A stretch of DNA of 64,000 bases from Candidatus Peribacteria bacterium (lineage in GTDB: Bacteria > Patescibacteriota > Gracilibacteria > UBA1369 > 2-02-FULL-48-14): NCBI GenBank assembly GCA_943354505.1, contig CALRCE010000003.1:7255-71254 (forward strand). Reading direction: 5' to 3'. The notes beneath the pieces are model-generated. The model did not search any database. It was not told where the DNA came from and saw only the letters and a program-made list of their open reading frames with translations. How positions within the stretch are numbered: the stretch's first letter is position 1; each line of letters opens with the position of its first letter. This document shows, in pieces, positions 9,068-31,205 of the stretch. The position numbers and the translations under genes were made by a program.

Positions 9068-9502
9068 TGGTGGAGATGGCGGGAATCGAACCCGCGTCCA
9101 AAAAGGAAGTGCGAAACTCTCTACTTTCATAGTCTATCCTGTGTACGTTGAGCCAATAAAGGACAGACGAAAACGACCTCAACGTGTCTTCAAGGTTTCA
9201 GTTTACGAGTGGAACACAAGCCCCCGCAAACCTAAGCCCCGAGTATGACACCCGATCTCTCTCACAGGGCCTCAGAGAGTGGGCGTGACCGCGCTAAATG
9301 GCAGTCATGAAGAGGCGACTAGGCAAAAGCCAAAGCAGGAGCCAGACGAGCTGGAGCCATAGCCTTGAGAGCTGCTACGAGACCTTCTTCAGTAGTGTTT
9401 TTAGCACTTGAATTTGTCTGGACGGATTAGAGGTGGGACCAGACAACCACCTGAAAGCAAGCTTCGGACTTCGAGTCTTCTTGTCGAAACCTGTACATCC
9501 CC
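9068..9502 (-). ncRNA. ssrA: tmRNA (ssrA), about 435 nt
   Basis: On the minus strand, the 5' end is GGGGATGTACAGGTTTCGAC and the 3' end is GGACGCGGGTTCGATTCCCGCCATCTCCACCA. The acceptor pairing includes a G3:U wobble. An internal frame GCT AAA AAC ... GCT TTT GCC TAG spans 9405..9319. Confidence 0.85.
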
Positions 9503-17544: not shown

Positions 17545-20055
17545 ATGAGCCTTACGCCCACCGCCTTTGTCTTCAAGACCGCGAGCTTCCACCACAAAGA
17601 ACGCCGCGTCGACTTTTCTTATCGCATCACATTCAAAAACAGCAAGCCCCTCAACTTCAAAGAGACCCTCACGCTTCCCAAACAGAAAACTCAGAAACTG
17701 CCGCCCGCGCTGCTCAAAGAGTTGATCAAAAACCTGCACCTCGTTTTAGGCCTGAGCTACTACAAGCTCTACTGCCCGAAGAAAATCGAAGTTCCCTACA
17801 AGCTCACCGAGTGGGAAGCCGGCTTTTGGCACGACCTTTACGAGAGAGGACTTGGCGAATTCTTTTATCGCAACCAAATCGATTACCGTGGGCTCATCCG
17901 CTTCCCGTTCAGCAAAAAAAAGAACCCCTTTGTGCCCGTTTCACTTCCCACCAAAGAGAGCGCGCTTCTGGGCATTGGAGGTGGAAAAGACTCCATCGTC
18001 GCGGGCGAATTCCTCAAAAAAAGAAGACTGCCCCTCACCGGCTTCGTCCTTGAGACCGGCAAGGCCTCGCCCGTTGTCAAAGACGTGGCCAAAACCATGG
18101 AGCTCAAACTCCTCACGGTTAAACGAAGCTTAGACCCCCAACTCTTCAAAACACTGCCCGGCTCCTTCAACGGACACATCCCCATCTCCTCCATCTTCGC
18201 CTTTGTCGGACTCTTCACTGCGGCGCTCTACGGGCACCGCTACGTCGTGGTTGCCAACGAGGCGAGCAGCAGTTTCGGCAACCTCACCTACCTCGGCCAA
18301 GAGGTCAATCACCAGTGGAGCAAGTCCATCGACTTTGAGCGCCGCTTCCAAACGCACACGTGGCTGAATTTGACCCGTGACGTCACCTACTTCTCCGCCA
18401 TCCGCCACCTCTACGAAATCCGCGTCGTGGAAGAGTTCGTCAAGCACCCCAAGTACTTCAAAAAGTTCACCAGCTGCAACCGCAGCTTCCGGGTGGATAA
18501 AGAGCGCCCAAAAACCTTGTGGTGCGGAGAATGCGCCAAGTGCGCCTTCGTCTTTGCGGAACTCGCCGCCTTTTTAAAGCCGGCCGAACTCCTCCCCATT
18601 TTTGGCAAGAATCTTTTCGAAGACGAGGCCCTCCTACCGATGTATAAAGACCTTTGCGGCCTGGGCAAGCTCAAGCCCTTCGACTGCGTGGGCACCTTTG
18701 AAGAGAGCCGCGCCGCCTTGCGTCGTGCCAGCAAAAACTGGGGCAAGGCCAAGCTTCTCAAAACCCTGAATCCTCTCCTCCAGAAAAACTTTCCAAAAGA
18801 CGATGAAGCACCTCTCTTTAAAGTCCAAGATGCACCTTCGCTCCCCGCGCATTTCAAATTTCTCGGCCTGAAAGACGTGCTCATCCTCGGCTATGGAAAA
18901 GAAGGCAAAGTCACCGAAAAGTACCTCAAAAAATTCTACCCGAACTTGCCCCTCCGCATCGGGGACCAAGCGACGAACGCCCACTACCTCGAGCTCCAAA
19001 AGCAAGCAGATTTTGTGGTGAAAACCCCCGGACTCCCCGGCTCCAAAGTCACCGTCCCCTACGCCACTGCGACCCAAATCTTCTTTGCCCACGACCGCCA
19101 CTTTAAATTCGGAGTAACAGGCAGCAAAGGCAAAAGCACCACGGCTTCTCTGCTCGCACACATCCTCAAAACCGCAAAAAAACCAGTCCAACTTCTGGGC
19201 AACATCGGCAGCCCCATGCTCGACGTACTGCTCAAAAAATCGAGCCCAAAAACAAACTACGTGCTGGAGCTTTCCAGCTACCAGTTGGAAGAACTTCGCC
19301 AATCCCCGAACGTCGCCGTGATCACCAACCTCTTCCCCGAGCACATGAACTACCACGGGAACGTGGACAACTACTACGACGCCAAATTGAATCTCCTTCG
19401 GTTCCTCGGACACGATGGCCTCTTCGTCTGCAACACCGCTCATCCTCTCCTTAAAAAATGGAGCAAAATGGGAATGAAAACGGTGCCTTTTTCCAAATGG
19501 GCTCCTGCCAAAACCAACTTACTCGGCGAACACAATCGCTCCAACGCCGCGGCCGCCATCGCCGCCGCCACAGCCGTTTACAAAATCCCAAAAACCACAC
19601 TCAGCAAGGCCGTGGCCAGCTTCCAGCCTCTCCGTCACCGCCTCCAAAAAATCGGCACCTTTCGCGGCATCACTTTTTACGACGACGCCATTTCCACTTC
19701 GCCCGAGTCCACCATCGAGGCCCTCAAAGCCCTCGCTCCGCTCGGGCCGATCGGCACCATTTTCTTGGGCGGAGAGGACCGCGGTTACGACTTCACCGAA
19801 CTTGAAAAAGAACTGCGCCGTCGCAAAATCCCGAACCTCGTGCTCTTCCCAGACACCGGCAAACGCATTCTAAAATCTCGCAAAGGCTTCAAGGTGCATG
19901 AGGCCACTTCCCTCAAAGAAGCCGTCAAGCTTGGTTACAAACTCACGCCAAAAGGCCACATCTGCCTCCTCTCCACCGCCTCTCCTCACGCCTTCGGGAT
20001 GAGTTTCGAAGATCGCGGGGATGAGTTCCAGCGCCTAGCCAAAGCAGCCCGCTAA
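17545..20055 (+). CDS. murD: Fusion protein: N-terminal PP-loop ATPase-like domain (MurL-like candidate) plus C-terminal MurD-type UDP-MurNAc-L-Ala:glutamate ligase
   Basis: 836 aa. The N-terminal half has GIGGGKDS (17971-17994) and CGECAKCAF. The C-terminal half has GVTGSKGKSTT, NLFPEHMNYHG, GEHNRSN and DDAISTSPEST (Mur ligase). Confidence 0.75.
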   Translation: MSLTPTAFVFKTASFHHKERRVDFSYRITFKNSKPLNFKETLTLPKQKTQKLPPALLKELIKNLHLVLGLSYYKLYCPKKIEVPYKLTEWEAGFWHDLYERGLGEFFYRNQIDYRGLIRFPFSKKKNPFVPVSLPTKESALLGIGGGKDSIVAGEFLKKRRLPLTGFVLETGKASPVVKDVAKTMELKLLTVKRSLDPQLFKTLPGSFNGHIPISSIFAFVGLFTAALYGHRYVVVANEASSSFGNLTYLGQEVNHQWSKSIDFERRFQTHTWLNLTRDVTYFSAIRHLYEIRVVEEFVKHPKYFKKFTSCNRSFRVDKERPKTLWCGECAKCAFVFAELAAFLKPAELLPIFGKNLFEDEALLPMYKDLCGLGKLKPFDCVGTFEESRAALRRASKNWGKAKLLKTLNPLLQKNFPKDDEAPLFKVQDAPSLPAHFKFLGLKDVLILGYGKEGKVTEKYLKKFYPNLPLRIGDQATNAHYLELQKQADFVVKTPGLPGSKVTVPYATATQIFFAHDRHFKFGVTGSKGKSTTASLLAHILKTAKKPVQLLGNIGSPMLDVLLKKSSPKTNYVLELSSYQLEELRQSPNVAVITNLFPEHMNYHGNVDNYYDAKLNLLRFLGHDGLFVCNTAHPLLKKWSKMGMKTVPFSKWAPAKTNLLGEHNRSNAAAAIAAATAVYKIPKTTLSKAVASFQPLRHRLQKIGTFRGITFYDDAISTSPESTIEALKALAPLGPIGTIFLGGEDRGYDFTELEKELRRRKIPNLVLFPDTGKRILKSRKGFKVHEATSLKEAVKLGYKLTPKGHICLLSTASPHAFGMSFEDRGDEFQRLAKAAR

Positions 20056-23541: not shown

Positions 23542-23549
23542 AAGAGGTC

Positions 23550-24098
23550 TTAAGCTTCATCGCCCTCTACAAAAACCCAAGCCGTTACCTCATCTGCTTC
23601 TCGGGCAGAGGTTTGTTCATCGCTAGACAGAGCAGTGTCCATGACTTGCTCAATAAGAGCGCGGTCCCCGCCCTGAGGAAGGTGAGGGGTGAGCTTGCCT
23701 CGAGCCTCGGCACCAAAAGTCTGAATGGCCCAGGCCACAACCACTGCTGCAGAGCGTGGGGTGGCCATCTCCAAAAGTGATAACTTAGTGTCCTCGGGGC
23801 AGCTGGGATTGGCCAATAACCTTTCAATGAACGGAAGGACGCCAGCCTTATTCGTGGACGTGCCAATGAACAAAGAACGGCTCACAAAGGCTTCGTAGGC
23901 ATGGGCCGGCAAGCCCTCCATTTTAGCGGCCTGAAAGGCACCTCGGTCTAGAACCAATTCGGGTAAACTCAACACGGCTGAAGCATCAGCACAAGTGTCC
24001 ACTGCGGCCCTAAAGGCCTGTTCGTCAAAAAAGCCAGAAATAACAGGGCCAACATTGGGTCTATCAGAGAAGCTTGGGCTTGGTGAGGCTGCATTCAT
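23550..24098 (-). CDS. Hypothetical acidic protein, candidate immunity/antitoxin partner of the upstream 878-aa protein
   Basis: 182-aa ORF starting 11 nt after the stop of the 878-aa gene. Acidic C-terminus (EADEVTAWVFVEGDEA). No recognisable domain. Confidence 0.45.
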   Translation of the reverse strand: MNAASPSPSFSDRPNVGPVISGFFDEQAFRAAVDTCADASAVLSLPELVLDRGAFQAAKMEGLPAHAYEAFVSRSLFIGTSTNKAGVLPFIERLLANPSCPEDTKLSLLEMATPRSAAVVVAWAIQTFGAEARGKLTPHLPQGGDRALIEQVMDTALSSDEQTSAREADEVTAWVFVEGDEA

Positions 24099-24109
24099 AA
24101 GTAAAGGGT

Positions 24110-26746
24110 TTAAAGATTGCGGTACACGGCATCGTGACTTCCCATGGTGTCCACGCGGAAACTTTTTGGGTCCCTGACGTTATCGCCAATACGGGCAAAT
24201 ATGATGCGATAATTTCCAGTGATTCTACACGCGTACGTGTTCCCGCCATTGCCTTTCAATCTGTGGAAATCAAGACCTCCGGCATTGGGGTCTTCACCTC
24301 GTATCACGGCGCCGACGGCTCCAAGAGCAGCAAGGGCATCAGCCTGCAGCCCTGCATCCAGCTTATTAAACGCGTTTTGTCCTGAAGGGGCAATATTTAG
24401 CTCGGGGAAACGAGCCACCAAGTCAATTTGTGGAGCAGGACCCTTGCCGTTGGATTCCAGGTCTTTCTTCTGAACATAATCATCCAGGAACTCTCGCATC
24501 ACGGGCTTCCTCCCCTTGGCGAGGGCATTTCTTAAAGCACCAAATAAGCTTCTCCTCTCTTCAAGGGTACAAGCCTGGATCTCCGGCAAAATCTCGTCTA
24601 AGAAGCTCTCCCAAACAGCTCTCTCAGAACCTGCTTCCGCAAGCAGCGCATCAATGGATGCTTGCACCTCATTAGGCCTCCGCACAACATCCGATTGGCC
24701 AGCAGCCAGTTTTTGCTCCAGAGGCGCAACGCCCTCCGCCCAAATAAAGTCGAGAGCCTCCGCAAACTGAGGCCATTTTGCCTTCACAAGGTCGGGGACT
24801 CCCAGCAAGGCATAGTTTATTGTAGTGGAACCACTCTCTTCACGAGCCAGCCTGGCGAGAGTTTTCCCCAGCTCCCCACTAATAGACGAAAGACCTTCGG
24901 TTGCCGCTACGCCCACTCCAGCCATAGCCAGTGCGACAGCATAATCTTCAGGAGACAATGTTTTGCCCTGCACGTCAGCTCCGAGCCAGCTTGACCCTAG
25001 GCCGATCGTAGCATCCGTGCCCGCTTCGCCAAGAGTTGCGGTTAAAGGGTTTGCGCCAGCAGCCACCAATCCTGTGCGGATCAGGCCTCCAGCAGCACCT
25101 CCCACCGCTCCCCCCAGAATCACGGGGACCCCGTATTCGCCAGCCAATTCCTCGGGACTATCCCATCCTTTTCCACTCGCCAATTGAGCGCCTCCAGCAC
25201 TGATCGCACCCGCAAGAGCCAAAGGAGCAGCGCCTCCACCCGTTGCCGCAATCACCCCGAAAGCAACTCCCATTCCAGCCAAAAACAAACCAACAGCCCG
25301 TCCCCCGGCAGCAACCCCTTGAGTGGTTTGGTCAGAAAAGTTAAGCCATCCGGAACCGGTGGCTGCCATCAACTGGTCAAAAGCCAATCTTTTATCTTCA
25401 GACAAAGCCACGCCAGCCAATTCCTCTAAGTCCTCAACAGACATGGCGGAGGCACCACCGCTCATCGCAGCATCAAAATCTGCCGAAGCGGTTTGGAGAA
25501 AAGGAAGAGCAACTTCACACAATTCATTTTGCACGGCAGCAGGATCCAAAACCTCTCCACGCTGGCTCTCTTCAAGATAACGACACGCCGTGTACTGCAT
25601 GGCCAAAGCCTTCATGTCGCAGGGGTCTGCCGAAGTCGCCAGTAAACCCTGCATCGCAGTCAATAAGCTTTTTGTGTCGTCATTTTGTTCTGCTTCTATC
25701 AAGGCGGGCAAATCTGTCGCCCAAGTGCTGCGTTGCTGTTCAACAAAAGCAACGAGAGGGTTCTCCACCCCCTGCCGCTCTTCGTATCGGAGGGCTAAAG
25801 TCTCCCAGTCCAAGCCTTCTTTCAAGAGTTTAATAGCGGTATCCGAGTCCACAAGATCACTATCAATATCACCACCCTCTCCTCGCAAAAAAGTTGCCAC
25901 ACGAGTGTTTAAAGCTTGATAAGAATCCGGATCAGTTTGAGAGCGCAAAGCAAGTTTCAGTCGAATGGAAGAAACGCTGGCGTCCCTAAAACGACGGTAA
26001 CGCCCTTTTAAAACCTCACTTTGGCAGTCATCTTCGTCGATCTCGGCCATTCGTTGCTCAAACCACTCGATAGAATCCTCAGCACTTTTAGGAGCAAGAG
26101 TCGCTTCCACGTAGCCCTCCACGTCCACATCCTGGCCATAGGCGAGGGCATTCACATTCGCCCTAATGCCAGCCGCAAAGTCGGCGAAGAGCGAAACATC
26201 CTCTGCTTGCGCTGTCACCAAAAGACGACGATTTGGCAACGCTTCCCACTCCGTTCCAAGCGGGGCAGTGGCCCCAAGGGCCAGTCCAATTTCATGCAAA
26301 GAAGCATCCGTTTCGTGCATTAAAGCAGCAGCAGAGGCTTCATAGCTGTCAGGAGGGAAAAGAGAAGCCATTGGACGAGTAGGATCGAAAGTTTGAGCAA
26401 GCTCCAGGTAACCGGCAAGAAAAGAAGGATCCGCATACGAGGGTGCAACACCAGCAAAGTCGCCGAGTTCGTCAGGAGAAGGGGCTGTATTTCGAAGCCG
26501 ATCGCGTATGGATAAATACATACCAGCAGCGCCCTCAAATTCACCCGAATTCGCAGCAGTTGCGGTCTCCAAAACACCAGTGGAGGCACGCGAAGCCAGT
26601 CCCAGCTGTTCCATGACCGCAGCATTGCCATACGCTGCCCCAACCCCAAGGGGAATCCCTGAACTCTCTAACGAACCAGAAAGGTCTTGAGAAACATCGC
26701 CAGAACTCTCGTCCGGCTCAGAGTAACGTTGTCTGGAAGCTCCCAT
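24110..26746 (-). CDS. Large orphan protein with a Gly-zipper hydrophobic block and a C-terminal RelE/ParE-fold toxin-like module
   Basis: 878 aa. Residues about 477-618 are Gly/Ala-rich and hydrophobic. The last ~90 aa read LDFHRLKGNGGNTYACRITGNYRIIFARIGDN..FRVDTMGSHDAVYRN, which matches the RelE/ParE core pattern. Confidence 0.6.
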   Translation of the reverse strand: MGASRQRYSEPDESSGDVSQDLSGSLESSGIPLGVGAAYGNAAVMEQLGLASRASTGVLETATAANSGEFEGAAGMYLSIRDRLRNTAPSPDELGDFAGVAPSYADPSFLAGYLELAQTFDPTRPMASLFPPDSYEASAAALMHETDASLHEIGLALGATAPLGTEWEALPNRRLLVTAQAEDVSLFADFAAGIRANVNALAYGQDVDVEGYVEATLAPKSAEDSIEWFEQRMAEIDEDDCQSEVLKGRYRRFRDASVSSIRLKLALRSQTDPDSYQALNTRVATFLRGEGGDIDSDLVDSDTAIKLLKEGLDWETLALRYEERQGVENPLVAFVEQQRSTWATDLPALIEAEQNDDTKSLLTAMQGLLATSADPCDMKALAMQYTACRYLEESQRGEVLDPAAVQNELCEVALPFLQTASADFDAAMSGGASAMSVEDLEELAGVALSEDKRLAFDQLMAATGSGWLNFSDQTTQGVAAGGRAVGLFLAGMGVAFGVIAATGGGAAPLALAGAISAGGAQLASGKGWDSPEELAGEYGVPVILGGAVGGAAGGLIRTGLVAAGANPLTATLGEAGTDATIGLGSSWLGADVQGKTLSPEDYAVALAMAGVGVAATEGLSSISGELGKTLARLAREESGSTTINYALLGVPDLVKAKWPQFAEALDFIWAEGVAPLEQKLAAGQSDVVRRPNEVQASIDALLAEAGSERAVWESFLDEILPEIQACTLEERRSLFGALRNALAKGRKPVMREFLDDYVQKKDLESNGKGPAPQIDLVARFPELNIAPSGQNAFNKLDAGLQADALAALGAVGAVIRGEDPNAGGLDFHRLKGNGGNTYACRITGNYRIIFARIGDNVRDPKSFRVDTMGSHDAVYRNL

Positions 26747-26859
26747 ATGTTTTAATTAAGGTTTAAAACCGTATCAAAATAATATTTATTACGTCAAGCG
26801 AAGTTTTGCGCTCCCTGTCCCATTTCCCCAGGAGCAACGTTTTCAAGCGCAGAGGCCGG

Positions 26860-28485
26860 TTATCTTTTAGGCGGGCTGTCGCTAGTAGTTTGTGCACTTG
26901 AGTATTGCGAAGGTCCGTAAAACCACGCGTAAGCACCAGCAAGGGACGAAAGGGCAAAAATGGTTCCTAGGACGGCCAAAACGCGCTTACAGTCACCCAG
27001 ATTTGTGCCGGTCAATTGAAGGGGAAAAGGCCGAGCCGCCGCTACTCCTCCAAGAATAGGGGCTCGTCTCTCAACTGCATCTGAGCCCCGCCCCACCCCA
27101 GCATACTGTTTCGGCTCAGGAATGTGGTTACTAAGATCGTAGAAGGGGTCGTCATCGGGCTCAATCTCGATAGGGCCGTCTGCCATTGGCATCATTTCTA
27201 AAAACCTGTCACCCGTAGCTCTATCAGAAGCGAGACTCGGCGTGATTGGACCCTCGTGCGAATTACCATCTAATTCCGGAGCCATTTGACCCAAAACTTC
27301 GTCCGGGTTGTTTGCACAAACAGTGTCACCATCGCTGATAAAAGAGCGATGAGGAAGAGTTTCTAGACCTTCATCATCCACGCGACTCAGCAAAGTCTCT
27401 CTTGCTACCTCACACGCATTTCTCATATGCGTCAAATATCCTACCGCATCTTCAACACGACCTTGAAGGCTTGGTACAGTCGGGCAGCGAAGAAAGTCCA
27501 GTAAGTAATCCTTGATCAAAGCAAGACCCCTTCCTTCTAGCCCATTCTCATCCATTACACACACGCTTTCTGGAACAAGATTAGCCACTCTTATGAGCCT
27601 AGCCCACACATCATGCAATTGTTTTGCGTTGATGCCCACGTCACAGCCACGAAACTGTTCGATCAGCGCCTCTAAAAAATGAATGAAGCAGCGGGCTTCT
27701 TTTGCCGTGATCTTACCAGTCTGTTTAGTACCGACTAAGACCCACACATAGTCGTCTTTAAAGTCACTGGTCGCACCAAGATCTTTAGGCAGTGTAGAAG
27801 CAGAAGTGAATTCAACAGAATAGGCAGCGGGAGGTGAAACCTCGAATCTCTCCACAGCACCCTTCAGTCGTCCAAGAGCACTTTGCAAACCTCGAGCCAA
27901 CGTAAGTACCTCGTCATGAGTTCTTGTGCAGCATAACTCCCTAAGGAACGATTGAAATTCTTCATCCAACTTCAGTTGACTTCCCCCATCGCGTCTATTG
28001 ACCATTTCTACTGAGACGTTATAGACCGCCCTTATATCACCAAAAAACCGAACCAAAGCCTCACGGATTTCCTCGACGGGAAGGGCCGCACATTGAAGGA
28101 TTTCATCAACACGCTTGATCGCAGGGGCCAAACCGAGTGAAAGAGCCGACGGCTGATGGCCCAGCACAGGGAATACTGCCACAGGGGGAATGGGTCTGGG
28201 CGGCACCACTTTAGCAGCCTCTCTCGCACTGGCCGCCTCCTCTGCCCGACGAGCCCCCTCTCGCTCAGCCTCCTCGCGATCTCTAGCTTTTTGCAAAGGA
28301 GCATCCGCTACTCGAGCACGATAAGCTTCCATAAATCGGCTTACTTCAAATTCACTCATTACCGTTGTCCCATCGCCATCCAAAGCATCCATTTGTCCAA
28401 GAGCATCAACATCGTCACAACCTAGGCTTACCGTTGAGGCGTCAGCGAAGGCATCTTCACAGGTGAGAGCTAAAGTATCTGACAT
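26860..28485 (-). CDS. Hypothetical tail-anchored protein
   Basis: 541 aa. Acidic N-terminus, a charged helix KARDREEAEREGARRAEEAASAREAAK, and a single C-terminal TM helix VLAVLGTIFALSSLAGAYAWFYG. Confidence 0.5.
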   Translation of the reverse strand: MSDTLALTCEDAFADASTVSLGCDDVDALGQMDALDGDGTTVMSEFEVSRFMEAYRARVADAPLQKARDREEAEREGARRAEEAASAREAAKVVPPRPIPPVAVFPVLGHQPSALSLGLAPAIKRVDEILQCAALPVEEIREALVRFFGDIRAVYNVSVEMVNRRDGGSQLKLDEEFQSFLRELCCTRTHDEVLTLARGLQSALGRLKGAVERFEVSPPAAYSVEFTSASTLPKDLGATSDFKDDYVWVLVGTKQTGKITAKEARCFIHFLEALIEQFRGCDVGINAKQLHDVWARLIRVANLVPESVCVMDENGLEGRGLALIKDYLLDFLRCPTVPSLQGRVEDAVGYLTHMRNACEVARETLLSRVDDEGLETLPHRSFISDGDTVCANNPDEVLGQMAPELDGNSHEGPITPSLASDRATGDRFLEMMPMADGPIEIEPDDDPFYDLSNHIPEPKQYAGVGRGSDAVERRAPILGGVAAARPFPLQLTGTNLGDCKRVLAVLGTIFALSSLAGAYAWFYGPSQYSSAQTTSDSPPKR

Positions 28486-28634
28486 ACTCGAATAGCAAAA
28501 GTACAGAAAGGCTGAATTTCAGCATATAATGATAGTTAAGTCAATAGTAAACGCCGTGAGTGACGAAATTCGGTAAGTGGCCAAAGAAGGTGCCCACGTT
28601 TAATCCTGCCGTGGCTGCTTCTCGCTGTGAGGAG

Positions 28635-30179: not shown

Positions 30180-31205
30180 ATGCCAAACAAAATCACACTT
30201 TCCCTGCTTAGCCTCAGCCTTTTGTTCGCCACGGCTTGCAACAGCGGCGAAGTCCAGCCCGAGCCTGTCACTCCAGAGGCCACTCTGGATCCAAAAGACA
30301 CAAGGTACACGATGTTTATTTTGAACGTCCACGACTGGCTTCTCGGCGAAGATTCCATCGAAACGGTGAACAAAGTCATCGACATTCACGAGGAGTACGA
30401 CATCCCAGTCAACATTTACTTAACCGACCCCATTGTTCAGCTCTACGTCGAGCAAGCGCCTGACCTCATCGAACGGCTGAAAACCTCAGAAGTGGTGACC
30501 GTTTCTTACCACACCCGTCCACCCACCCCTTACTACTCGGACTTTGACATTATTGGCCTCCACGAACTCAGCGACCAAGAGATCTACGACACGATCATGG
30601 ACTACGAAACCCACCGCCTCGACTTGAGCACCGGCCTGCCCACCGAAGAAGAAGGCGGTTACGCCTATCTCACCGAACTCATGGGCTACGCGCCAGTGAC
30701 GGTTGGGGTTTTCAGCACCTATAAAAACGTAGAAACTCAAGCCTTAAAGGTCTACAAAGACCTTGGAGCGACCTTCACGCTGGTGCACGAAAAAACCAGC
30801 GCCCTGGGCGACACCAAAGGCGGTCTTTACTTGAGACCAGAACAGATCGAACTGAAGCTGTACGAATCCAAGGCCTTAGACTCAACGGCCCAAGGAGTCA
30901 TCGAAGACGCCATGAACGCTTACACCGGGGACACGAGCGACGGAATCTTCATGAACATCAAATTCCACGAAGACAATTTTTACCTCAACGGCACCCCCTG
31001 GCTTTCCAACTTTTACACAGATGGAAAGGACTCCGCGCGCAAAGAAACGCCCTTCGACATCGAAACGGTGGACGTAAAGGAAAAAACAAACGTCGAAAAA
31101 ACTCACATGTGGGAGCTTTACGAACAAGGGGTAAAATACGTCAAAGACAACGCAGAAACCATGCACCCCATCAGCGAGGCGGACCTTCAGGACATGCTCA
31201 ACTAG
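30180..31205 (+). CDS. Putative lipoprotein of unknown function
   Basis: 341 aa. Signal peptide with lipobox-like LLFATAC followed by NSGE. Confidence 0.55.
   Translation: MPNKITLSLLSLSLLFATACNSGEVQPEPVTPEATLDPKDTRYTMFILNVHDWLLGEDSIETVNKVIDIHEEYDIPVNIYLTDPIVQLYVEQAPDLIERLKTSEVVTVSYHTRPPTPYYSDFDIIGLHELSDQEIYDTIMDYETHRLDLSTGLPTEEEGGYAYLTELMGYAPVTVGVFSTYKNVETQALKVYKDLGATFTLVHEKTSALGDTKGGLYLRPEQIELKLYESKALDSTAQGVIEDAMNAYTGDTSDGIFMNIKFHEDNFYLNGTPWLSNFYTDGKDSARKETPFDIETVDVKEKTNVEKTHMWELYEQGVKYVKDNAETMHPISEADLQDMLN

What the first reader, a model, noticed from the sequence alone, without database searches (positions are those of the whole stretch)
24113..24391. RelE/ParE-fold toxin module fused to the C-terminus of an 878-aa protein
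The last ~90 residues read NAFNKLDAGLQADALAALGAVGAVIRGEDPNAGGLDFHRLKGNGGNTYACRITGNYRIIFARIGDNVRDPKSFRVDTMGSHDAVYRN. This follows the RelE/ParE signature: a helical N-part, then LKG...Y..RI.g.YR[IL][IV][FY], then a final beta strand ending G.H..VY.

Free-standing RelE/ParE toxins are about 90 aa and pair with an upstream antitoxin. Here the module is the tail of a giant protein, and the only tightly linked small ORF lies downstream, in the position typical of an immunity gene. RelE belongs to the BECR fold group, whose members are known as cargo domains of polymorphic toxins.
Basis: partly seen in the sequence, partly recalled or inferred. Interest (0 to 1): 0.7.

Follow-up and report, generated by a model that had tools for sequence, protein, structure and literature searches.

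The report
HigB-like RNase tail on membrane protein
The last ~90 residues of an 878-residue protein from a candidate-phylum (Peribacteria) bacterium are a real HigB/RelE-type toxin domain, attached as the swappable end-piece of a previously undescribed family of large membrane-associated proteins.

Summary
The 878-aa ORF lies on the minus strand (24110..26746) and ends with the quoted sequence.

**Domain identity.** The tail is a RelE-superfamily domain of the HigB-like (PF05015) type.
- PHROG 'toxin of TA system': E = 2e-6.
- HMM built from 120 PF05015 proteins: 32 bits, against at most 6.3 bits for 2000 shuffles.
- Pfam and NCBIfam curated cut-offs are not reached.
- The structural evidence is only moderate: pLDDT 64; the top PDB fold hits are almost all RelE/YoeB/YafQ/HigB, but with E >= 0.019.
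- Counterparts of HigB His54, Lys57, Asn71, Arg73 and His92 are present. Asp90 and Tyr91 are not at the aligned positions.

**Carrier family.** An exhaustive search found 27 distant relatives. They share only the N-terminal module and a Gly/Ala-rich hydrophobic block. Their C-termini differ (calpain, GGDEF, FHA, AAA, phosphatase or unknown), and none has a HigB tail. The RelE module is therefore one variable cargo on a polymorphic carrier.

**Genomic setting.** The gene lies in a three-ORF island absent from the closest relative.

**What remains open.** The 'immunity gene' argument is weak. In canonical higBA operons the antitoxin also lies downstream, and the 182-aa ORF matches no known family. 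Whether the toxin acts on another cell or on the producer is unresolved.

**Verdict.** This is a new variant of a known kind.

The parts
24110..26746 (-). 878-aa ORF (stop codon included); the carrier protein together with its cargo
   Evidence: ORF list; numbered sequence. The annotated frame is the best of six by codon usage, but its score is atypically low: 0.11 against 0.38-0.44 for core genes.
25337..26329 (-). Conserved N-terminal module (about residues 140-470), with motifs W..(x)..ID.N.(W)QS..LK..Y and GDIDSDLVD.D
   Evidence: phmmer against 1.84 billion representatives gave 27 hits, E=1.9e-26 to 3.7e-5, all aligned to query residues ~140/210-560. See also alignment A6. There is no Pfam family and no convincing PDB relative.
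24881..25318 (-). Gly/Ala-rich hydrophobic block (residues 477-622). It holds about 4 weakly hydrophobic segments, the first two forming a 'bilobed' hairpin with GxxxG-type spacing.
   Evidence: Kyte-Doolittle windows above 1.4 at residues 477-516, 538-556 and 604-622. The block is conserved across the family. The flank richest in K/R lies on the C-terminal side.
24374..24880 (-). Linker or unknown region (residues 623-791) between the hydrophobic block and the toxin domain
   Evidence: There is no significant family match; FdhE_N at E=0.004 is below its cut-off. This region is not covered by the relatives.
24113..24373 (-). HigB-like RelE-superfamily domain (residues 792-878). Putative active-site residues are H828 (nt 24263-24265), K831, N845, R847 (nt 24206-24208), H871, D872 and Y875.
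   Evidence: Profile matches are. Alignments to verified HigB (4MCT_B), verified RelE (4V7K) and five plasmid HigB-like toxins are. The AF2 model with an MSA is and the Foldseek PDB search.
23550..24098 (-). 182-aa acidic ORF (pI 4.5) starting 11 nt downstream; a candidate neutraliser (antitoxin or immunity protein), unproven
   Evidence: No family match and no HigA similarity. The annotated frame is the best of six by codon usage.
26860..28485 (-). 541-aa acidic ORF with one C-terminal hydrophobic anchor (residues 499-522), 113 nt upstream on the same strand. It is part of the same island and its role is unknown.
   Evidence: No family match. It is not similar to the 878-aa protein or its relatives.
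23542..28634 (.). Variable island between def and the femAB-like gene, holding the three orphan ORFs
   Evidence: In the closest relative, L001 (Ca. Peribacteria MAG; Def 89% and FemAB 78% identical), def and femAB are separated by one unrelated 199-aa ORF. DNA similarity stops at the def stop codon and at the femAB stop codon. No flanking repeats or mobile-element signature were found.

Best explanation
**Shown.**
- The window comes from a Candidatus Peribacteria (CPR/Patescibacteria) chromosome.
- The 878-aa protein belongs to an uncharacterised family of large proteins. Members share a conserved N-terminal module and a Gly/Ala-rich hydrophobic block, followed by a C-terminal region that differs completely from member to member.
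- In this member the C-terminal cargo is a HigB-type RelE-superfamily domain.

**Inferred.**
- The domain is a ribosome-dependent mRNA endonuclease. It would enter the ribosomal A site and cleave mRNA, with H828 as general base (HigB His54), R847 stabilising the transition state (HigB Arg73) and a C-terminal His/Asp/Tyr cluster (H871, D872, Y875) on the leaving-group side.
- The hydrophobic block inserts the protein into a membrane, leaving the cargo on a cytoplasmic face.
- The acidic 182-aa protein encoded 11 nt downstream binds and silences the basic tail (pI about 9) in the producer.
- The protein acts as a toxin or effector whose cargo was exchanged by recombination. The target is most likely the cytoplasm of a contacted cell (host or competitor of this episymbiotic lineage). 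The same parts would also work as a self-directed, membrane-tethered toxin-antitoxin pair.
For: **Domain identity.**
- phrog_3066 E=2.1e-6 and phrog_1213 E=6.7e-4.
- PF05015 and TIGR02385 are the only or top hits.
- My own PF05015-derived HMM gives 32.2 bits, against at most 6.3 bits for 2000 shuffles.
- 97 weak tblastn hits in plasmids fall almost exclusively on annotated RelE/ParE toxins next to HigA.
- The Foldseek top 40 are almost all RelE/YoeB/YafQ/HigB (TMq 0.43-0.56, probability up to 1.0).

**Residues.** H828, K831, N845, R847 and H871 align with HigB H54, K57, N71, R73 and H92. The roles of those HigB residues come from PMC5027501.

**Polymorphic carrier.**
- 27 relatives match only residues ~140-620.
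- Their C-termini carry Peptidase_C2 (three members), GGDEF, FHA, AAA, Metallophos or nothing known.
- None has a HigB-like tail.

**Island.** It is absent from the nearest relative and its codon usage is atypical.

**Neutraliser candidate.**
- The downstream ORF has an 11-nt gap and is acidic (pI 4.5) against the basic tail (pI 9.0).
- Relatives P0001, P0003 and P0011 also have a tightly linked small downstream ORF. Those of P0001 and P0011 are unrelated to p182 and to each other; no DNA was available for that of P0003.

**Precedent.** Tox-RelE is a documented cargo of polymorphic toxins (PMC3482391).
Against: - Pfam and NCBIfam curated thresholds are not reached (18.3 against 27 bits; 16 against 27.9 bits).
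- The AF2 model is of moderate quality (pLDDT 64, pTM 0.52) and depends on a HigB-family MSA. No Foldseek hit reaches E<=1e-3.
- HigB Asp90 and Tyr91, both essential in vivo, align with G869 and S870, so catalysis is not assured.
- No signal peptide, secretion-system domain, repeat array, releasing peptidase or orphan cassette was found.
- Several relatives carry typical intracellular signalling domains (GGDEF, FHA, AAA). Some have housekeeping genes directly downstream: a Dtd-like gene (my reading of its sequence, not a profile result), LigA and an oxidoreductase. The family is therefore not uniformly a toxin-immunity system.
- The even number of hydrophobic segments and the K/R-rich C-flank suggest that the tail faces the producer's own cytoplasm.
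- The 182-aa ORF has no homologue and no recognisable fold.
- No close relative of this exact protein exists in any collection searched, so conservation of the fusion cannot be tested.
Confidence: 0.5

Rival explanations
1. Self-directed, membrane-tethered toxin-antitoxin or abortive-infection module. The protein stays in the producer's membrane with the HigB-like domain in its own cytoplasm. The downstream 182-aa protein is its antitoxin, in higBA gene order. Envelope stress or phage entry releases the RNase to shut down translation.
For: - There is no signal peptide. About 4 hydrophobic segments and a K/R-rich C-flank predict both termini inside the cell.
- A toxin followed by a downstream partner 11 nt away is exactly the canonical higBA layout.
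- Membrane-associated BECR toxins (ToxM/ToxR) have been proposed as defence modules (PMC11980606).
- Relatives carry cytoplasmic-type domains (GGDEF, FHA, AAA).
Against: - The downstream protein lacks any HTH or RHH and has no HigA similarity.
- PADLOC finds nothing.
- ToxM has the opposite layout, with an N-terminal BECR domain and an upstream antitoxin.
- This reading does not explain why the same carrier bears proteases, a phosphatase and similar domains in other genomes.
Confidence: 0.27
2. Degenerate or co-opted RelE fold. The tail keeps the fold but not RNase activity, and serves as a ribosome-, RNA- or protein-binding module on a membrane scaffold. The neighbouring ORFs are unrelated to it.
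For: - HigB Asp90 and Tyr91 align with Gly and Ser.
- RelE Lys52 aligns with Ala.
- There is a 5-6-residue insertion before the last strand.
- Scores against curated models are sub-threshold.
- Island codon usage is poor.
- No recognisable antitoxin is present.
Against: - The general-base His, the transition-state Arg, the A-pocket Asn and the terminal His are all retained.
- A RelE/StbE-like G-x-H-D-x-V-Y ending supplies a Tyr at the position equivalent to RelE Tyr87.
- A tightly coupled acidic ORF fits a need for neutralisation.
Confidence: 0.13
3. Artefactual or very recent fusion. A free-standing higB-like gene was joined to the upstream ORF by an assembly or sequencing error or by loss of a stop codon, or it is still translated separately from the internal TTG or GTG codons at residues 776 and 777.
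For: - TTG and GTG codons lie just upstream of the domain, and a product starting there would be about 102 aa, toxin-sized.
- No relative has this tail.
- No second copy of this exact protein exists in any collection.
Against: - The reading frame is open and continuous for 878 codons.
- There is no Shine-Dalgarno-like sequence at a suitable distance from those codons.
- GC and GC3 of the tail match the rest of the gene.
- C-terminal domain swapping is the rule in this family.
Confidence: 0.07

Closest known systems
HigB-like toxins (Pfam PF05015; Proteus vulgaris Rts1 HigB, PDB 4MCT/4YPB) of type II higBA modules
   Same: - Best profile and fold matches.
- 27-33% identity to five plasmid HigB-like toxins over the whole domain.
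- Shared E-D-x-N-x-x-G-L-x-x-H-x-L-K-G and G-N-[WY]-R-I-x-F motifs.
- His54, Lys57, Asn71, Arg73 and His92 equivalents are present.
- A partner gene lies immediately downstream.
   Different: - It is not a 92-aa stand-alone protein but the end of an 878-aa membrane-associated protein.
- The C-terminal D-Y-H triad is replaced by G-S-H-D-A-V-Y-R-N-L, and there is a 5-6-residue insertion before the last strand.
- The downstream partner is 182 aa, lacks an XRE-type HTH and is unrelated to HigA.
- The Pfam gathering score is not reached.
Tox-RelE cargo domains of classical polymorphic toxins (Zhang et al. 2012, PMC3482391)
   Same: - A RelE-fold RNase forms the extreme C-terminal domain of a large protein.
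- Homologues of that protein carry other C-terminal domains.
- A small ORF directly downstream is a candidate immunity protein.
   Different: - The described Tox-RelE proteins have RHS repeats, HINT peptidases, Sec/T2SS export and Imm54 immunity. None of these is detected here.
- The carrier is a new family with a glycine-rich hydrophobic block.
- Its other cargoes are mostly signalling-type or unknown domains rather than recognised toxins.
- There are no orphan cassettes.
ToxM/ToxR membrane-associated BECR toxins (Gerdes 2025, PMC11980606)
   Same: A RelE/ParE-superfamily domain is fused to a transmembrane region, which suggests a membrane-coupled toxin.
   Different: - ToxM has the BECR domain at the N-terminus, a single central TM region and a periplasmic C-terminal domain, with an upstream RHH/HTH antitoxin.
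- Here the order is reversed, the protein is far larger, and neither neighbour has a DNA-binding domain.
E. coli RelE / RelE-StbE family (TIGR02385; PDB 4V7K, 4FXE)
   Same: - NCBIfam match over profile positions 2-73/88.
- The C-terminal G-x-x-x-x-V-Y ending resembles RelE G79...Y87.
- Arg61 and Lys54 equivalents are present (R847, R841).
   Different: Only 18% identity. Lys52 aligns with Ala839 and Arg81 with His871. The score is sub-threshold.

Membership tests
RelE/ParE superfamily, HigB-like branch (PF05015) | Significant sequence-profile match over most of the ~90-aa domain | tested here: met
   - phrog_3066 E=2.1e-6, profile positions 20-83/94.
- An HMM of 120 PF05015 proteins gives 32.2 bits, against at most 6.3 bits for 2000 shuffles.
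- TIGR02385 covers profile positions 2-73/88.
RelE/ParE superfamily, HigB-like branch (PF05015) | Score above Pfam's curated gathering threshold for PF05015 (27 bits) | tested here: not met
   18.3-18.6 bits, E about 0.003, with only profile positions 50-78 aligned. TIGR02385 gives 16 bits against a cut-off of 27.9.
RelE/ParE superfamily, HigB-like branch (PF05015) | BECR/RelE fold (two N-terminal helices packed on a 3-4-stranded antiparallel sheet) | tested here: inconclusive
   - The single-sequence AF2 model is useless (pLDDT 40).
- With a HigB-family MSA the model reaches pLDDT 64 and pTM 0.52, with H-H-E-E-E-E order.
- Foldseek top hits are almost all RelE/YoeB/YafQ/HigB, with TMq 0.43-0.56, but the best E is 0.019.
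- The MSA presupposes the family.
RelE/ParE superfamily, HigB-like branch (PF05015) | HigB catalytic set: His54, Arg73, Asp90-Tyr91-His92 (PMC5027501) | tested here: inconclusive
   H828, R847 and H871 align with His54, Arg73 and His92, and N845 and K831 with Asn71 and Lys57. Asp90 and Tyr91 align with G869 and S870, although D872 and Y875 follow closely.
RelE/ParE superfamily, HigB-like branch (PF05015) | Bicistronic module with a HigA (XRE-HTH) antitoxin directly downstream | tested here: not met
   A downstream ORF is present 11 nt away, but it has no HTH, Pfam or NCBIfam match and no hit to an HMM of five HigA proteins.
RelE/ParE superfamily, HigB-like branch (PF05015) | Ribosome-dependent mRNA cleavage and growth arrest | not testable with these tools
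   This needs expression and cleavage assays.
Polymorphic toxin systems (sensu Zhang et al. 2012) | Homologues share the N-terminal region but carry unrelated C-terminal domains | tested here: met
   27 relatives align only to residues ~140-620. Their C-termini carry calpain, GGDEF, FHA, AAA, Metallophos or unknown domains, and none carries HigB.
Polymorphic toxin systems (sensu Zhang et al. 2012) | Recognisable N-terminal trafficking or secretion domain (signal peptide, T5/T6/T7SS-linked domain, RHS/FilH repeats, PT domain or releasing peptidase) | tested here: not met
   No Pfam, NCBIfam or PHROG match occurs outside the tail. The N-terminus is acidic, with no hydrophobic leader.
Polymorphic toxin systems (sensu Zhang et al. 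2012) | Cognate immunity gene immediately downstream, varying with the toxin domain | tested here: inconclusive
   - An acidic 182-aa ORF starts 11 nt downstream.
- P0001, P0003 and P0011 also have small downstream ORFs. Those of P0001 and P0011 are unrelated to p182 and to each other; that of P0003 could not be compared because no DNA was available.
- P0010, P0013 and P0017 have housekeeping genes there instead.
- There is no Imm-family match.
Polymorphic toxin systems (sensu Zhang et al. 2012) | Downstream orphan toxin/immunity cassettes | tested here: not met
   The next gene after the 182-aa ORF is def, on the opposite strand. A six-frame HMM search of the window finds no other HigB-like segment.
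ToxM/ToxR (PMC11980606) | N-terminal BECR domain, central TM region, extracytoplasmic C-terminal domain, and an upstream RHH/HTH antitoxin | tested here: not met
   The BECR domain is C-terminal. The upstream gene encodes a 541-aa protein with a C-terminal anchor and no DNA-binding domain.

The most novel reading that the evidence does not exclude
The 878-aa protein and its 27 relatives are a CPR-specific family of 'Inc-like' contact effectors. The conserved N-module and the bilobed glycine-zipper hydrophobic block would insert the protein into the membrane of the host bacterium to which the episymbiont attaches. The interchangeable C-terminal enzyme (HigB-type RNase here; calpain protease, GGDEF cyclase, FHA, AAA or phosphatase elsewhere) would then face the host cytoplasm. 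That would be a new delivery platform for polymorphic effectors in bacteria that lack T3SS, T5SS, T6SS and T7SS. It would also be the first case of a ribosome-dependent mRNA interferase used as a membrane-tethered, host-directed weapon.
Probability: 0.2. Interest if true: 0.85.

Novelty: new variant of a known kind. Interest (0 to 1): 0.55.

Why it matters
RelE/HigB domains are known mainly as small, self-directed toxins of toxin-antitoxin pairs. A few are known as cargo on RHS-type polymorphic toxins.

Here a HigB-type domain is the end-piece of a membrane-associated carrier with no described relatives. The same carrier holds proteases, a cyclase, a phosphatase and many unknown domains in other uncultured bacteria.

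CPR/Patescibacteria live attached to other cells, and almost nothing is known about the proteins they use on their partners. This family is a concrete, testable candidate for such an effector platform. The RelE-bearing member is the easiest to assay, using toxicity, rescue by the downstream gene, and mRNA cleavage.

If the protein instead acts on its own cell, it extends the recently proposed class of membrane-coupled type II toxins.

Tried and rejected
**Searches that found nothing**
- Word-indexed homologue searches with the full protein and with the tail found nothing.
- An exact-sequence contig look-up found nothing.
- Scans of genome and metagenome collections with the 878-aa protein found no close relative. 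An alignment including the window protein was too divergent to give search patterns.
- phmmer of the tail against PDB sequences gave only noise, Cu/Zn superoxide dismutase at E>2.
- PADLOC gave no defence-system match for any of the three island proteins.

**Structure**
- Single-sequence AF2 of the tail was unusable (pLDDT 40).

**Carrier module**
- A profile of the carrier family against PDB gave only weak SRP68 and alpha-catenin helical matches (E>=6e-4, about 21 bits). I treat these as compositional.

**Neighbouring ORFs**
- The idea that the 182-aa ORF is a cryptic HigA was rejected; it gave no hit to a HigA HMM.
- The idea that the 541-aa upstream ORF is a paralogue of the carrier was rejected.
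- The idea that it is the counterpart of the small upstream ORF seen in some relatives was also rejected.

**Island**
- A mobile-element origin was rejected: there are no flanking direct or inverted repeats of note, no integrase, and no sigma-70-like promoters above chance.

**Relatives**
- From memory, the 'GWKLHL...FTIYIG' C-termini of relatives P0015, P0018 and P0023 resemble phosphothreonine lyases. Pfam gives no support at E<=0.05 for the two scanned, P0015 and P0023, so I do not claim it.
Full report
**1. The observation**

The window holds one 878-aa ORF on the minus strand (24110..26746). A 182-aa ORF (23550..24098, minus strand) begins 11 nt after the stop codon. A 541-aa ORF (26860..28485, minus strand) lies 113 nt upstream.

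**2. Is the tail a RelE/ParE-type domain?**

Four independent profile libraries point the same way and to nothing else.

| Library | Model | E-value | Bits | Coverage / note |
|---|---|---|---|---|
| Pfam | PF05015 HigB-like_toxin | 0.003 | 18.3 | below the 27-bit cut-off |
| NCBIfam | TIGR02385 RelE/StbE | 0.012 | 16 (cut-off 27.9) | profile 2-73/88 |
| PHROGs | phrog_3066 'toxin of TA system' | 2.1e-6 | 28.8 | tail 16-79 to profile 20-83/94 |
| PHROGs | phrog_1213 'RelE-like toxin' | 6.7e-4 | – | – |

Further evidence:
- tblastn of the tail against 72,556 plasmids gave 97 hits. Each is weak on its own (E=0.06-9), but nearly all fall on annotated RelE/ParE toxins next to HigA antitoxins.
- I fetched five of these loci and confirmed my recalled HigB and RelE reference sequences as identical to PDB chains 4MCT_B and 4V7K.
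- In a joint alignment the tail is 27-33% identical to the five plasmid HigB-like toxins over the whole domain.
- A profile search seeded with that alignment returned thousands of PF05015 proteins.
- An HMM built from the best 120 of them, without the tail, scores the tail at 32.2 bits. The best of 2000 shuffles scores 6.3 bits. There is mild circularity here, because the retrieval profile contained the tail as one of nine sequences.
- The aligned stretch spans the second helix, the E-D-x-N-x-G-G-L-x-F-H-x-L-K-G loop and two strands.

Structural evidence is weaker.
- AF2 without an alignment failed (pLDDT 40).
- With a 121-row HigB-family alignment the model reaches pLDDT 64 and pTM 0.52, with helix-helix-strand-strand-strand-strand order.
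- Foldseek against the PDB ranks RelE, YoeB, YafQ, HP0894 and HigB structures in almost all of the top 40 places (TMq 0.43-0.56, probability up to 1.0). No hit reaches E<=1e-3.
- I count this as consistent with the assignment, not as independent proof.

**3. Active-site residues**

In HigB, His54 is the proposed general base and Arg73 stabilises the transition state. Tyr91, supported by Asp90 and His92, acts on the leaving group. Asn71 forms the adenosine pocket (PMC5027501).

- In alignments A4 and A5 the tail has H828, K831, N845, R847 and H871 at the positions of His54, Lys57, Asn71, Arg73 and His92.
- Asp90 and Tyr91 align with G869 and S870.
- The tail instead ends G-S-H-D-A-V-Y-R-N-L. 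This resembles the RelE/StbE ending (RelE G79...Y87) and supplies D872 and Y875.
- Against RelE, R841 and R847 match Lys54 and Arg61, but Lys52 aligns with Ala.
- Catalysis is therefore plausible but not assured.

**4. What the tail is attached to**

- Word-indexed searches found no homologue.
- The exhaustive phmmer search of 1.84 billion representatives found 27 (E=1.9e-26 to 3.7e-5). All are aligned only to query residues ~140/210-560/620, and their lengths range from 369 to 3221 aa.
- They share an N-terminal module with the motifs ID-x-N-x-WQS-xx-LK-xx-YG, LAKLFTDRG-xx-IDSDL-x-D-x-DFA and NPL.
- They also share a Gly/Ala-rich hydrophobic block, for example GAKIAAMIAAGIAVGVATGGLGVVAAALAGGAAMTA...NQQGFD.
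- Their C-termini are unrelated to each other. Pfam finds calpain-type Peptidase_C2 in three members, GGDEF, FHA, AAA and Metallophos in one each, and nothing in most.
- None has a HigB-like tail.
- The one member with a taxonomic name (P0006) is a 'hypothetical protein' of Candidatus Peribacteraceae; P0003 and P0022 are also named only 'hypothetical protein', without lineage, and the others looked up carry no name.
- No Pfam family and no convincing PDB relative covers the shared module.
- The 878-aa protein is thus the shortest complete member of an undescribed family with a conserved front and a polymorphic end. The HigB-like domain is its particular cargo.

**5. Genomic setting**

- The window is chromosomal. 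It carries tmRNA, mfd, dnaN, RNase J, a Mur-ligase fusion, prfB, def, femAB, ftsZ and ftsA.
- It belongs to Candidatus Peribacteria. The nearest genome contig is L001 (Mur-ligase fusion 70% identical, Def 89%, FemAB 78%).
- In L001, def and femAB are separated by one unrelated 199-aa ORF. In the window they are separated by the three orphan ORFs.
- DNA similarity ends at the two stop codons.
- The island has no flanking repeats and no mobile-element genes.
- For each of the three ORFs the annotated frame is the best of six. Their codon-usage scores (-0.08 to 0.11) are far below those of core genes (0.38-0.44). This fits foreign origin or rapid evolution.

**6. The downstream ORF**

For the HigB branch this does not hold. 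All five plasmid loci have the 92-aa toxin first and HigA 11-71 nt downstream.
- The 182-aa protein is acidic (pI 4.5) against a basic tail (pI 9.0), and the two genes are tightly coupled.
- It matches nothing in Pfam, NCBIfam, PHROGs or PADLOC, nor a HigA HMM.
- Across the relatives for which I could get context, the picture is mixed:
  - P0001, P0003 and P0011 have a small ORF 10-16 nt downstream. Those of P0001 and P0011 are unrelated to p182 and to each other; no DNA was available for P0003.
  - P0022 has one 267 nt away.
  - P0013, P0010, P0017 and P0031 are followed by a Dtd-like gene, LigA, an oxidoreductase and a sortase-domain protein.
- A neutraliser role for the 182-aa ORF is reasonable but unproven.

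**7. Mechanism**

*Shown:*
- the domain identity;
- the polymorphic architecture;
- the island.

*Inferred:*
- The tail is a ribosome-dependent mRNA endonuclease.
- It is silenced in the producer by the 182-aa protein.
- The hydrophobic block inserts into a membrane with the cargo on a cytoplasmic side.

*Unresolved:* whose cytoplasm that is.

- For delivery to another cell:
  - the interchangeable cargo;
  - the variable island;
  - the attached lifestyle of CPR bacteria;
  - protease cargoes and proline-rich linkers in relatives.
- For action in the producer:
  - no signal peptide or secretion domain;
  - an even number of hydrophobic segments with a K/R-rich C-flank;
  - higBA-like gene order;
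  - intracellular-type domains (GGDEF, FHA, AAA) in relatives;
  - the ToxM precedent (PMC11980606).

I rate delivery to another cell somewhat higher than a self-directed module. I keep a degenerate, non-catalytic domain and an artefactual fusion as minor rivals.

**8. Comparison with what is known**

- RelE-fold cargo on polymorphic toxins is documented (Tox-RelE, with RHS/HINT and Imm54; PMC3482391).
- Membrane-associated BECR toxins have been proposed (ToxM/ToxR).
- The present protein meets neither definition. It lacks every trafficking hallmark of classical polymorphic toxins, and its domain order is the reverse of ToxM, with no DNA-binding antitoxin.
- It works like a HigB toxin domain on a polymorphic carrier. 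By curated Pfam and NCBIfam thresholds it is not a formal member of PF05015 or TIGR02385, although more sensitive and targeted profiles place it firmly in that superfamily.

**9. Verdict**

This is a new variant of a known kind. The new element is the carrier family and its lineage, not the idea of RelE as cargo. Interest is moderate (0.55). It would be high if the carrier proves to be a CPR effector-delivery platform.

Noticed in passing
P0001-P0027 (relatives of window 24110-26746); loci L065-L074: Many relatives contain long poly-proline runs (PPPPPPP). They also share a recurrent ~50-aa motif after the membrane block: 'AH..G.....Y[ST]..EL..K..IL..AGF[TS]..E...L...GI.G'. Neither feature is present in the window protein, and neither is covered by Pfam.
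   Followed up: partly
L066 4668-4997, L067 4612-4998, L073 2506-2925: A small helical ORF (109-139 aa) overlaps or abuts the start of the carrier gene in relatives P0001, P0022 and P0031. It is conserved between them (E=9e-15 for the first pair, about 0.003-0.005 to the third). It may be a chaperone or adaptor. The window has a 541-aa ORF with a C-terminal hydrophobic anchor at that position instead.
   Followed up: partly
L067 1122-3620 (near relative P0022): An 832-aa DUF87/TrwB/TraG-type (VirD4-like coupling-protein) ATPase lies ~1.4 kb upstream of a family member, on the opposite strand. This is a possible link to a secretion apparatus, seen in one locus only.
   Followed up: no
L064 2899-5205 (Streptomyces griseoaurantiacus plasmid CP146838.1; also hits H6 and H8): An annotated 'UvrD-helicase domain-containing protein' (768 aa) begins with a RelE-like domain. 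That domain aligns with the window tail at 33% identity over 61 residues, including a RelE-type '...HRK..VY' ending. It is another multidomain RelE fusion.
   Followed up: partly
window 17545-20055 (+): An 836-aa fusion joins an unknown ~400-aa N-terminal domain to a MurD/MurE-type ligase. Outside CPR, its full-length relatives (33-42% identity) are in Luteibacter/Rhodanobacteraceae (Gammaproteobacteria). The N-terminal domain alone also occurs in filamentous cyanobacteria. This is an odd phyletic pattern that suggests lateral transfer.
   Followed up: no
window 9068-9502 (-): A tmRNA gene with an unusually long predicted tag peptide, AKNTTEEGLVAALKAMAPARLAPALAFA.
   Followed up: no
window 23542-28634 versus L001 15885-16504: The def-femAB interval is a replacement hotspot. 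The closest relative carries an unrelated 199-aa ORF there, which looks HEAT-repeat-like by eye only. The window carries three orphan ORFs with atypical codon usage.
   Followed up: yes
Fold search result, (PDB 7XBJ): The top Foldseek hit by E-value for the tail model was the Xenorhabdus insecticidal toxin Txp40 (TMq 0.43, 82 aligned columns of a 296-aa chain). This hints that Txp40 contains a RelE-like subdomain.
   Followed up: no
window 30180-31205 (+): A 341-aa ORF has an N-terminal hydrophobic leader, no Pfam match and typical core-gene codon usage. It lies between femAB and ftsZ and is probably a lineage-specific envelope protein.
   Followed up: no
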